A stretch of 45,551 nucleotides of DNA from an uncultured Gammaproteobacteria bacterium (GCA_964603435.1 CAZRUM010000002.1:1-45551); one strand, 5' to 3'; counted from the first letter of the stretch, positions 18,543-19,053 are shown. Numbers and translations are program-made. The notes: generated from the sequence alone by a model not told the origin.

Positions 18543-18582
18543 AATCCTGAGTGAGTCTGAAAGAGTGAATCGAAGGATCCCG
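18543..18582 (-). repeat. Family-1 hairpin repeat in the recR 5' leader, sense to recR (…CATCGGGATCCTTCGATTCACTCTTTCAGACTCACTCAGGATTaaaatATG)
   Basis: Both conserved termini are present. The AGGA at its 3' end lies 7 nt before the recR ATG. Confidence 0.65.
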
Positions 18583-18670
18583 ATGTTGTTTGATTTTATT
18601 TTGGATTAAATTTAATTGAAGTTTTGTTATAGAAAAAATAATTATTATTCAAAAATTGATACATTAAAAA

Positions 18671-18708
18671 CGGGATTCTTCCACCTCACTGCGTTCAGTG
18701 TCAGAATT
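18671..18708 (+). repeat. Family-1 variant repeat (CGGGATTCTTCC…GTCAGAATT) overlapping the GIY-YIG stop codon
   Basis: Both termini carry the covarying change ATTCT/AGAAT relative to ATCCT/AGGAT. Confidence 0.5.
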
Positions 18709-18994
18709 GGTTAAATATATTATCCAAATTAGGATTAACTGTTTTTATTAATTCAATCTTTCTCTCTCTTGCCCAACCTTTCAATTGTTTTTCTCTAGCT
18801 AAGGCTTCTTTGATAGTATTATATTCTTCAAAATATAATAATTCATCCACATTATATCTGGATGTAAAAGCATTTTTAAAATATTTTATCTCATGTTGCC
18901 GCCATCTTCTATCTATTCCATCTGTAAAACCAACGTAATAAACTGTCCGACGTTTATTGCTTAATATGTAAGTGTAGTAAACTTTATTTTTCAT
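18701..18994 (-). CDS. stand-alone GIY-YIG nuclease (YhbQ/UPF0213-like)
   Basis: 97 aa; YYTYILSNKRRTVYYVGFTDGIDRRWRQH…KQLKGWARERKIELI matches the GIY-YIG/YhbQ pattern. Confidence 0.75.
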   Translation of the reverse strand: MKNKVYYTYILSNKRRTVYYVGFTDGIDRRWRQHEIKYFKNAFTSRYNVDELLYFEEYNTIKEALAREKQLKGWARERKIELIKTVNPNLDNIFNQF

Positions 18995-19011
18995 GACAGG
19001 CGCATTTTAGA

Positions 19012-19053
19012 CGGGATTCTTCGTTGTAAAGCTACGCTTTACTCCTCAGAATT
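19012..19053 (+). repeat. Family-1 variant repeat (CGGGATTCTTCG…CTCAGAATT) filling the whole GIY-YIG/ybaB intergenic space. Its interior, GTAAAGCTACGCTTTAC, resembles the Family-2 core.
   Basis: A direct repeat of the copy at 18671..18708; the two bracket the GIY-YIG gene. Confidence 0.55.

What the first reader, a model, noticed from the sequence alone, without database searches (positions are those of the whole stretch)
18543..19053. GIY-YIG nuclease gene inserted into the ybaB-recR operon and bracketed by direct repeats of the hairpin element
ybaB and recR are normally adjacent. Here a 97-aa YhbQ-like GIY-YIG nuclease gene sits between them on the same strand. Its flanks are two same-orientation variant Family-1 repeats: 18671..18708 overlaps its stop codon, and 19012..19053 fills the whole GIY-YIG/ybaB spacer. 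A third copy in opposite orientation (18543..18582) forms the recR leader. This layout looks like a small selfish or mobile nuclease cassette, or a repeat-mediated insertion, that now also supplies recR with its translation signals.
Basis: partly seen in the sequence, partly recalled or inferred. Interest (0 to 1): 0.6.

Follow-up and report, generated by a model that had tools for sequence, protein, structure and literature searches.

The report
Ssn nuclease gene with hairpin repeats
A tiny gene for a nuclease that cuts single-stranded DNA (Ssn family), together with the hairpin repeats such nucleases recognise, sits between two DNA-maintenance genes of an ultra-small (CPR) bacterium; this nuclease-plus-repeat pairing was described in 2025, so the locus is a real but divergent new example, not a new kind of system.

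Summary
A 97-aa GIY-YIG gene (18701-18994, minus strand) lies between ybaB and recR. Three copies of a repeat, CGGGATYCTTC..YCAGRATT, sit at exactly the stated coordinates (7 full matches in the window, 0 expected).

The gene is a homologue of SsnA, the site-specific ssDNA endonuclease of Chenal et al. 2025 (PMC11893778). It is 40% identical to the gonococcal orthologue, hhalign probability is 99.9%, and the catalytic Tyr/Tyr/Glu are kept. The repeats correspond to that family's hairpin motifs (SRM), so the layout is the published repeat-ssnA-repeat architecture.

The pair shared with a relative is the inverted one, 19012-19053 and 18543-18582. The copy over the stop codon is an extra, lineage-specific addition.

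The gene is an accessory insert. Magasanikbacteria relatives of similar divergence have ybaB-recR adjacent or carry a different insert there. It is old (77% identity to the one orthologue at this site) and under purifying selection (dN/dS 0.22).

The claim that the repeat supplies recR's translation signals is unsupported, because most genes here lack Shine-Dalgarno sequences.

Divergent features:
- CPR host.
- No GTC triplet 5' of the stem, and no match to the published SRM search motif.
- An in-frame 111-nt hairpin doublet inside uvrA.

The parts
18701..18994 (-). ssnA homologue: a 97-aa single-domain GIY-YIG nuclease of the Ssn family
   Evidence: PF01541 2.4e-15. 40% identity over 77 aa, E 7e-19, to the N. 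gonorrhoeae SsnA orthologue, which sits among 13 NTS repeats. hhalign probability 99.9%. Y9, Y20 and E68 align with the Nm catalytic residues Y6, Y17 and E64 (PMC11893778). AF2 pLDDT 93.7; nearest folds are UPF0213 1zg2 and Slx1. dN/dS 0.22 against L004.
19012..19053 (+). Hairpin repeat (SRM-like) upstream of ssnA. On the coding strand it reads CTAATTCTGAGGAG..CGAAGAATCCCG, with its outer end next to the ybaB stop codon
   Evidence: It is conserved at the same place in relative L004 with the same variant ATTCT/AGAAT stem. It is the best-folding copy: -11.4 kcal/mol, z = -2.2.
18671..18708 (+). Extra hairpin copy in the same orientation as 19012-19053. It contains the ssnA stop codon and changes the C-terminus (NQF* against DI* in L004)
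   Evidence: It is absent from L004. The alignment shows about 110 extra bases in the window.
18583..18670 (.). 88-nt AT-rich spacer between the extra copy and the recR-leader copy. With those two copies it forms a head-to-head doublet like the one at 41236-41398
   Evidence: No terminator was found in it. The only promoter-like match nearby (minus strand, 18704-18675, 9/12) lies in the adjacent hairpin copy 18671-18708, not in the spacer.
18543..18582 (-). Hairpin repeat downstream of ssnA, the inverted partner of 19012-19053. It ends 5 nt before the recR ATG
   Evidence: It is conserved in L004. A compensatory variant (ATCCC/GGGAT) precedes recR in L091, which lacks the nuclease gene.
17944..18537 (-). 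recR, the flanking host gene
   Evidence: TIGR00615 2e-64.
19056..19352 (-). ybaB/ebfC, the flanking host gene
   Evidence: PF02575 1.7e-14.
5604..5714 (+). Head-to-head hairpin doublet of the same family, inserted in frame (111 nt, 37 codons) in uvrA
   Evidence: Bst UvrA (2r6f) aligns without query residues 482-528. Four CPR UvrA fragments at 62-70% identity lack the segment GGVKSKHPDVKQRDPSTTTSSSFHSGSVFAQDE.
34940..34974 (+). Solo hairpin copy ending 4 nt before the ATG of an FdtA/WxcM-like gene
36457..36491 (+). Solo hairpin copy ending 5 nt before the ATG of an rmlD-like gene
41236..41398 (.). Gene-less head-to-head hairpin doublet (41236-41270 minus, 41353-41398 plus) around a terminator-like hairpin, between two convergent genes. 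Both outer ends read TAACCAATCCTGAG, and the TAA is the stop codon of the neighbouring gene
   Evidence: (I14).

Best explanation
The locus is a copy of the Ssn/SRM nuclease-repeat system in a Candidatus Magasanikbacteria (CPR) genome.

Shown here:
- The 97-aa protein is a homologue of SsnA. SsnA is a single-domain GIY-YIG enzyme; the homologues tested so far (three Neisseria species and Wolbachia) bind a cognate hairpin repeat only when the DNA is single-stranded.
- The window's 'Family-1' repeats are this lineage's version of those hairpins. They have a 5-bp stem whose sequence covaries across genomes, an internal GAG/CGA(A) element, a variable interior, and a C right after the stem.
- The gene sits between an inverted pair of hairpins (19012-19053 and 18543-18582), as in the published repeat-ssnA-repeat layout.
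- The cassette occupies the ybaB-recR spacer only in some lineages. No terminator was found between dnaB and recR, so it probably rides in that transcript.

Taken from the published experiments on those four homologues: the enzyme cuts the strand that reads 5'-(GTC)-stem..stem'-C a few nucleotides 5' of the hairpin. It does not act on dsDNA, on RNA or on the opposite strand.

Inferred for this organism:
- The enzyme binds the nine copies in this 45-kb contig whenever they become single-stranded, during DNA uptake, replication or repair.
- It nicks beside them. This would limit recombination of repeat-bearing ssDNA, possibly help the repeats spread, or both.
For: Family membership:
- BLASTP 40% identity over 77 aa, E 7e-19, to the 94-aa gonococcal SsnA orthologue, which is surrounded by 13 NTS copies in 1.6 kb.
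- hhalign 99.9%, E 5.7e-31.
- Catalytic Y9, Y20, R30 and E68 are invariant in the alignment of 29 homologues.
- Confident GIY-YIG model.

Repeat association, found independently before I located the paper:
- 43 of 77 homologue loci have an inverted repeat across the gene that beats all 100 shuffles.
- With a strictly anchored pattern, 80 of 131 fully paired hairpins lie within 250 nt of the gene, which is 5% of the sequence searched.
- The orientation is biased.
- These figures agree with the published 71% (at least one SRM) and 42% (both sides) (PMC11893778).

Stem covariation: among 108 distinct anchor-only hits, 86.7% of cells are paired against 64.6% when shuffled. There are 142 double-change cells against 50 expected, 0 of 500 shuffles reach the observed values, and slid controls stay at or below 45%.

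Local evidence:
- The same inverted pair flanks the orthologue in L004.
- All window copies keep the C after the palindrome, which the paper found most critical for binding.
- The variable interior is compatible with the paper's finding that the loop can be replaced.

Accessory status. Purifying selection.
Against: - The published degenerate SRM motif matches none of the window copies, and only 3 of the 80 closest-homologue loci. My implementation does find 7 NTS in the Neisseria locus.
- The three bases 5' of the stem are GTC in NTS and govern cleavage in Nm. In the window they are TTA, CCA, CTA, ACA or TAA. Cleavage specificity may therefore differ, or cleavage may be lost.
- Most window copies fold no better than shuffled sequence.
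- The two NTS nearest the gonococcal gene have their GTC ends facing the gene. That is the opposite of the prevailing outward orientation in the window-like loci.
- No Ssn from a CPR organism, or from this sequence subclade, has been assayed.
- The biological role outside Neisseria is unknown according to the authors.
Confidence: 0.8

Rival explanations
1. One reading: the cassette is delimited by the two same-orientation repeats (18671-18708 and 19012-19053), which are duplications or recombination sites that mediated a recent insertion.
For: The two copies are direct repeats and share the variant ATTCT/AGAAT stem not seen in the other seven copies. They closely bracket the ORF.
Against: The orthologous cassette in L004 has no copy at the stop codon; its partner is the inverted recR-leader copy. 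Across 80 loci the usual arrangement is inverted. Outside the conserved ends the two copies differ throughout their interiors. The insert is old: 77% protein identity and dS 0.69.
Confidence: 0.07
2. The nuclease-repeat unit is an active, IS-like or REP/RAYT-like mobile system. Ssn nicking beside hairpins drives copying of solo hairpins, doublets and the gene cassette to new sites. It is not merely a domesticated modulator of transformation.
For: Presence and absence do not follow the clades: L004 has the gene, but its closest relative L093 (88% identical housekeeping proteins) does not. The window lineage has an extra hairpin plus spacer. A 111-nt doublet is inserted in frame in uvrA and is absent from relatives. 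Gene-less head-to-head doublets share the geometry of the cassette. Nucleotide similarity of 68-77% between genes from different phyla ends within about 60 nt of the gene. The authors themselves note the IS-like architecture.
Against: GIY-YIG enzymes hydrolyse DNA and have no known strand-transfer activity. I found no target-site duplication at the uvrA or ybaB-recR sites. One identical protein seen on 24 contigs always has the same neighbours. Two Winogradskyella species keep the gene in synteny. The gene is rare in viral contigs (8 loci) and in plasmid records.
Confidence: 0.3
3. The hairpins work at the RNA level, as leader, Shine-Dalgarno donor, stabiliser or attenuator. The copy at 18543-18582 exists because it gives recR its ribosome-binding site, and the link with the nuclease gene is secondary.
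For: AGGA of the repeat lies 6-7 nt before the ATG of recR and of two other genes. A related hairpin precedes recR in L091, which has no nuclease gene.
Against: Most of 40 genes checked have no Shine-Dalgarno-like motif at the usual distance, so SD-led initiation is not the rule here. Copies occur in both orientations relative to transcription, after stop codons and inside uvrA. Nm SsnA does not bind RNA. There is no Rfam match and RNA folding is weak.
Confidence: 0.08
4. The GIY-YIG gene is an ancestral, conserved member of the dnaB-ybaB-recR operon with a housekeeping repair role. The repeats are unrelated genome-wide clutter.
For: It is on the same strand as its neighbours with no terminator in between. 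dN/dS is 0.22. It is at the same site in two lineages that are about 79% identical.
Against: It is absent from three of five lineages of comparable divergence, including the sister of L004. The gene-repeat association holds across phyla (PMC11893778).
Confidence: 0.04
5. It is a classical free-standing GIY-YIG homing endonuclease (I-TevI or Seg type).
For: It has a GIY-YIG domain and is an accessory gene between conserved genes.
Against: The protein is only 97 aa, with no DNA-binding extension. The best matches are Ssn/UPF0213/Slx1-type proteins, not I-TevI. It is rare in phage contigs.
Confidence: 0.02

Closest known systems
Ssn family / SsnA with NTS-SRM repeats (Chenal et al., Nat Commun 2025, PMC11893778)
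   Same: A single-domain GIY-YIG protein of about 95 aa with the same catalytic residues. Clear sequence homology (40% identity; hhalign 99.9%). The gene is flanked on both sides by oriented hairpin repeats that also occur elsewhere in the genome. A C follows the palindrome and the loop is variable.
   Different: The host is a CPR bacterium, a group not mentioned in the paper. The 5' triplet is NNA rather than GTC. The stem is AT-rich, with a GAG/CGA(A) internal element and a long interior, so the published SRM search motif does not match. Repeat density is high for a tiny genome (9 copies in 45 kb). One doublet is in frame inside uvrA, whereas NTS are rarely inside genes. Activity has not been tested.
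REP elements with RAYT (IS200/IS605-derived Y1 transposase)
   Same: A nuclease gene flanked by inverted copies of a dispersed palindromic repeat. There are gene-less inverted doublets (REPIN-like). The nuclease acts on ssDNA hairpins with an oriented 5' flank.
   Different: The nuclease belongs to a different superfamily: GIY-YIG, which is hydrolytic, rather than HUH/Y1, which forms a covalent intermediate. There is no GTAG tetranucleotide.
Rickettsia palindromic elements (RPE)
   Same: Short palindromic repeats inserted in frame in protein-coding genes, as with the uvrA doublet. The Ssn paper lists Rickettsia among the SRM-rich genera.
   Different: I did not test sequence relatedness. The RPE behaviour is cited from my own knowledge (Ogata et al. 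2000), not from a tool result.
UPF0213 (BH0048 1zg2, EF2693 1ywl; E. coli YhbQ) and the Slx1 nuclease domain
   Same: The GIY-YIG core fold. These are the best PDB hits by sequence and by structure.
   Different: Only 24-27% identity. NCBIfam gives no hit to the window protein. Slx1 has a RING/PHD domain and needs Slx4, and it acts on branched dsDNA.

Membership tests
GIY-YIG nuclease superfamily | GIY-YIG domain with the catalytic Tyr (GIY), Tyr (YIG), Arg and Glu | tested here: met
   PF01541 2.4e-15. Y9, Y20, G22, R30 and E68 are invariant, and H34 and N87 nearly so, in 29 homologues.
GIY-YIG nuclease superfamily | The three-stranded sheet plus helices fold | tested here: met
   AF2 pLDDT 93.7, with topology beta-beta-alpha-alpha-beta-alpha-alpha. 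Foldseek finds 1zg2, Slx1 and the UvrC N-terminal domain.
Ssn family (SsnA, cd10448) | Homology to N. meningitidis SsnA (the paper's criterion: blastp E < 1e-10 with 75% cover) | tested here: met
   Tested against the N. gonorrhoeae orthologue rather than CAX49033.1 itself. Result: 40% identity over 77 of 94 residues, E 7e-19; hhalign 99.9% over 90 columns.
Ssn family (SsnA, cd10448) | Single-domain protein of about 94-150 aa with no DNA-binding extension | tested here: met
   97 aa, with one Pfam domain covering residues 6-79.
Ssn family (SsnA, cd10448) | Top CDD assignment is cd10448 (GIY-YIG_unchar_3) | not testable with these tools
   No CDD/rpsblast tool is available. NCBIfam returned nothing.
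Ssn family (SsnA, cd10448) | Gene flanked 5' and 3' by hairpin repeats (SRM) | tested here: met
   Copies at 19012-19053, 18671-18708 and 18543-18582. The same holds in L004.
Ssn family (SsnA, cd10448) | Flanking repeats match the published degenerate SRM search sequence HGTCWYN(0-2)YYVSBRHN(0-5)WNVSBRGN(0-2)RNCYNB | tested here: not met
   0 matches in the window and in L004. The same regex finds 7 NTS in the Neisseria locus. The authors use this as a search tool, not as a definition of the family, and it also misses 77 of the 80 closest-homologue loci.
Ssn family (SsnA, cd10448) | Site-specific binding and cleavage of ssDNA only, next to the cognate hairpin | not testable with these tools
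   This needs purified protein and oligonucleotides.
REP-RAYT system | The nuclease is an HUH/Y1 (IS200/IS605 TnpA-like) protein | tested here: not met
   The only Pfam domain is GIY-YIG.
REP-RAYT system | Gene flanked by inverted repeats; dispersed solo copies and inverted doublets | tested here: met
Transposon / MITE with terminal inverted repeats | Target-site duplication at the insertion boundaries | tested here: inconclusive
   No clear duplication at the uvrA doublet or at the ybaB-recR insert. Only distant empty sites were available for comparison.
Intrinsic terminator | GC-rich stem followed by a T run | tested here: not met
   The scan finds no terminator at any of the three copies. 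The real terminator is at 17901-17927.
Any Rfam RNA family | Covariance-model match | tested here: not met
   No hit on these hairpins at gathering score in the window or in 28 related loci. Nothing relevant at E <= 5 in 18480-19120.

The most novel reading that the evidence does not exclude
The Magasanikbacteria version may be a functionally distinct and still mobile branch of the Ssn/SRM system. Two things point that way. First, its hairpins have lost the GTC triplet that directs cleavage in Neisseria and belong to a large class (stem-GAG..CGA(A)-stem') that the published motif does not capture. Second, hairpin doublets insert at gene boundaries and even in frame into uvrA, and the gene cassette comes and goes between close relatives. 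If so, Ssn nucleases would be the engine of a pan-bacterial family of REP-like repeats that does not depend on an HUH transposase, and not only a brake on transformation.
Probability: 0.3. Interest if true: 0.65.

Novelty: new member of a known kind. Interest (0 to 1): 0.4.

Why it matters
The finding extends the recently described Ssn ssDNA-nuclease/hairpin system to the Candidate Phyla Radiation. Those genomes are about 1 Mb, and DNA uptake is thought to be central to their lifestyle.

The published SRM search motif misses the hairpins next to the window's closest homologues in 77 of 80 loci. The diversity of Ssn targets, and with it the toolbox of ssDNA cutters with different specificities, is therefore likely larger than reported.

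The in-frame uvrA doublet and the gain or loss between close relatives are concrete cases for testing whether these repeats still move.

For annotation, small 'GIY-YIG nuclease family' genes flanked by such hairpins should be called ssnA-like. Peptides such as DPS..FAQDE that appear in neighbouring or host ORFs are read-through of the repeats.

Tried and rejected
- I first developed a 'REP/RAYT-like GIY-YIG system' idea as possibly new. Eight literature searches found nothing relevant. The ninth gave only background on Slx1 and YhbQ. The tenth found Chenal et al. 2025, which already describes the system, so I withdrew the novelty claim.
- Rfam: no match to the hairpins. A hit to Acido-Lenti-1 in L116 is unrelated.
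- Promoter or terminator role for the repeats: nothing convincing.
- Shine-Dalgarno donor idea: weakened by the general lack of SD motifs.
- Reverse association, from hairpin to gene: in 80 metagenome loci picked by the GGGATCCTTCG..CTCAGGAT pattern, only 1 of 89 hairpins has the gene within 300 nt. Most copies are therefore solo, which is uninformative about function.
- Link between stem class and protein phylogeny: the nearest neighbour has the same class in 50 of 57 cases. Taxonomy was not controlled, so I give this no weight.
- Search for near-identical cassettes in different contexts: none, because the collection holds one genome per species. The protein P0038 seen on many contigs always has the same context.
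- The UvrA homologue search was swamped by fragments, though four useful relatives came out of it.
- A possible hairpin remnant in the empty L093 spacer is too weak to use.

Full report
**1. What is in the sequence**

The window is 36% GC and appears to be a whole contig. RecR homologues name the organism as Candidatus Magasanikbacteria, a member of the CPR/Patescibacteria.

Four genes lie on the minus strand:
- dnaB, 19381-20853
- ybaB, 19056-19352
- a 97-aa GIY-YIG gene, 18701-18994
- recR, 17944-18537

No terminator-like site lies between them. A strong bidirectional terminator follows recR at 17901-17927.

That is 7 matches against none in 100 shuffles. Two further degenerate copies lie inside uvrA.

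The two copies next to the nuclease ORF (18671-18708 and 19012-19053) are direct repeats. They share a compensatory stem variant, ATTCT/AGAAT instead of ATCCT/AGGAT. The TGA stop of the ORF lies inside the first of them.
- The upstream copy covers 42 of the 61 spacer bases.
- Most copies are weak hairpins by energy.

**2. Is it an insert?**

Five lineages share the synteny dnaB-ybaB-[X]-recR-(rplU). Their concatenated DnaB, YbaB and RecR proteins are 79-88% identical, except L089 and L091, which are 98% identical to each other.

- The window and L004 carry the GIY-YIG gene.
- L093 has ybaB, 38 nt, then recR.
- L089 and L090 have ybaB, 98 nt, then recR.
- L091 and L092 carry an unrelated 214-aa ORF at the same spot.

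L093 is the closest relative of L004 (88%) yet lacks the gene. L089 and L091 are 98% identical yet differ by the other insert. The spacer is therefore a hot spot, and the nuclease gene is accessory.

The insert is not recent, though. The two proteins are 77% identical, close to their neighbours, and dN/dS is 0.22.

**3. Which repeats belong to the gene?**

In L004 the gene is flanked by an inverted pair:
- TAATTCTGAGAAG..GAAGAATCCCG upstream
- CGGGATCCTTCG..CTCAGGATT downstream, ending 4 nt before the recR ATG

The window has the same pair (19012-19053 and 18543-18582). It also has about 110 extra bases, namely copy 18671-18708 and an AT-rich spacer. This extra segment rewrites the last residues of the protein.

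That extra copy and the recR-leader copy form a head-to-head doublet. It has the same geometry as two gene-less doublets in the window: one at 41236-41398 between convergent genes, and a compact one inside uvrA.

**4. The association is general**

Scanning one genome per species with an alignment of 29 homologues gave at least 580 relatives, of which 80 loci were kept. They come from Bacteroidota, Chloroflexota, Acidobacteriota, Clostridia, Cyanobacteriota, CPR and other groups.

The flanks show GTC-stem-GAG..CGA(A)-stem'-CT hairpins on both sides. The numbers are:
- 43 of 77 testable loci have an inverted repeat across the gene that beats all 100 shuffles.
- With a strictly anchored pattern whose chance expectation is negligible, 80 of 131 fully paired hairpins lie within 250 nt of the gene.
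- The orientation is biased, with the GTC ends pointing outward.
- An anchor-only search that ignores pairing gives 131 of 176 hits with 5/5 Watson-Crick pairs, against 30.5 with permuted partners, in 13 stem types.
- On 108 distinct sequences, 86.7% of cells pair against 64.6% when shuffled. Double changes number 142 against 50, no shuffle reaches the observed values, and slid controls stay at or below 45%.

The family is large: 10,315 clusters at 50% identity with E <= 1e-10. Many predicted proteins carry read-through peptides of the hairpins, such as ILRFAQDDK or VILSEHSEPKDL.

Cultured examples include S. meliloti and Planktothrix agardhii.

The gene is rare in viral contigs (8 loci) and in plasmid records (32 of 72,556, mostly megaplasmids or chromids).

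**5. It is already described**

The last literature search found Chenal et al. 2025 (PMC11893778). Their main results are:
- N. meningitidis SsnA is a 94-aa single-domain GIY-YIG protein (cd10448). It binds the hairpin repeat NTS (CGTCATTCCCGCGMAVGCGGGAATCYRG) only as ssDNA and cuts a few nucleotides 5' of it.
- dsDNA, RNA and the reverse strand are not substrates.
- The C after the palindrome is most critical for binding. The three bases before the palindrome are most critical for cleavage. The loop can be replaced.
- 71% of homologue genes have at least one Ssn-related motif (SRM) nearby, and 42% have one on both sides.
- 81% of genomes with more than 200 SRM encode the gene.
- The authors point out that NTS-ssnA-NTS looks like an insertion sequence. 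They draw the REP/RAYT analogy and propose domestication.
- In Nm the enzyme lowers transformation by NTS-bearing DNA.

**6. Membership of the window protein**

A gonococcal chromosome that is filed as a plasmid in the collection gave a 94-aa ORF embedded in 13 NTS copies. The window protein is 40% identical to it over 77 residues (E 7e-19). The profile comparison gives 99.9% probability.

Y9, Y20 and E68 correspond to the residues whose mutation kills Nm SsnA.

The AF2 model is confident (pLDDT 93.7). Its nearest solved folds are UPF0213 BH0048, the Slx1 nuclease domain and the UvrC N-terminal domain.

I could not run CDD. I conclude that the gene is an ssnA homologue and that the 'Family-1' repeats are its SRM.

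**7. How this copy differs**

(a) The published degenerate SRM motif finds 7 NTS in the Neisseria locus. It finds none of the window copies and matches in only 3 of the 80 closest-homologue loci. The stem-GAG..CGA(A)-stem' class therefore lies outside that search motif.

(b) In the window the three bases 5' of the stem are TTA, CCA, CTA, ACA or TAA, not GTC. The C after the stem is kept. This predicts that binding is retained and that cleavage is altered or lost.

(c) Every intergenic copy has its outer end at a gene boundary. Three copies end 4-5 nt before an ATG. Four follow or overlap a stop codon, and two of these share TAACCAATCCTGAG, in which TAA is the stop.

(d) uvrA contains a 111-nt, 37-codon head-to-head doublet in frame. 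It is absent from Bst UvrA and from four CPR relatives. By contrast, only 2% of NTS in Nm lie inside genes.

(e) The density, nine copies in 45 kb, is high for a genome of this size.

**8. The recR translation idea**

AGGA of the repeat does sit 6-7 nt before the ATG of recR and of two other genes. However, most of 40 genes checked have no Shine-Dalgarno-like motif at the usual distance. L093 recR has its own purine-rich stretch. L091 has a hairpin leader without the nuclease gene. The claim cannot be upheld from sequence.

**9. Verdict**

It is a divergent CPR member of a system published in 2025. What remains open is whether the system is still mobile here and what this variant cuts.

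Noticed in passing
window 5604-5714 (inside uvrA, 4164-6845): An in-frame 111-nt head-to-head hairpin doublet adds about 37 residues (..KSKHPDVKQRDPSTTTSSSFHSGSVFAQDE..) in a UvrA loop. It is absent from Bst UvrA and from four CPR relatives. This resembles the in-frame insertions of Rickettsia RPEs.
   Followed up: partly
L089:3903-4000 compared with L091:3094-4000: Two Magasanikbacteria contigs whose DnaB, YbaB and RecR are 98% identical differ by a 214-aa ORF with no Pfam match, inserted between ybaB and recR. 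This spacer is an insertion hot spot independent of the nuclease gene.
   Followed up: partly
L004:~1370-1680: A 57% GC island in a genome of about 33% GC, between recR and rplU. It has no called ORF and no credible Rfam match, so it may be an unannotated structured RNA. It is absent from the window.
   Followed up: partly
window, all gene starts (for example 1441, 4164, 17552, 19352): Most of 40 genes checked have no Shine-Dalgarno-like motif in the 25 nt before the start codon. Three of the few that have one owe it to the hairpin repeat.
   Followed up: partly
window 8275-8333, 8505-8563, 17873-17931: Three intrinsic terminators share nearly the same core, AAAAACCCGCC-loop-GGCGGGTTTT. They form a small family of look-alike terminators.
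   Followed up: no
L095-L174 (for example L107:3069-3141, L130:1444-1516): In GC-rich soil metagenome contigs the same conserved ends (GGGATCCTTCG..CTCAGGATGAC) enclose long, perfectly paired, highly variable inner stems. They often occur as head-to-head doublets. Only 1 of 89 has an ssnA-like gene within 300 nt.
   Followed up: partly
L216 (Planktothrix agardhii plasmid p1, record 18847-19131): Here the ssnA-like gene and a dense array of gtcattctgag..gaagaatct hairpins lie between an MmeI-type restriction-modification gene and the DISARM gene drmA, that is, inside a defence island.
   Followed up: no
L226 (N. gonorrhoeae, 558-581 and 977-1000): The two NTS nearest gonococcal ssnA have their GTC ends facing the gene. 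This is the opposite of the mostly outward orientation around the window-like homologues.
   Followed up: no
window 18701-18994 compared with L004:395-685: Synonymous divergence of the nuclease gene (dS 0.69) is lower than that of its neighbours ybaB (0.98) and recR (1.93). This could reflect later exchange of the cassette between lineages, or simply noise in a 96-codon gene.
   Followed up: no
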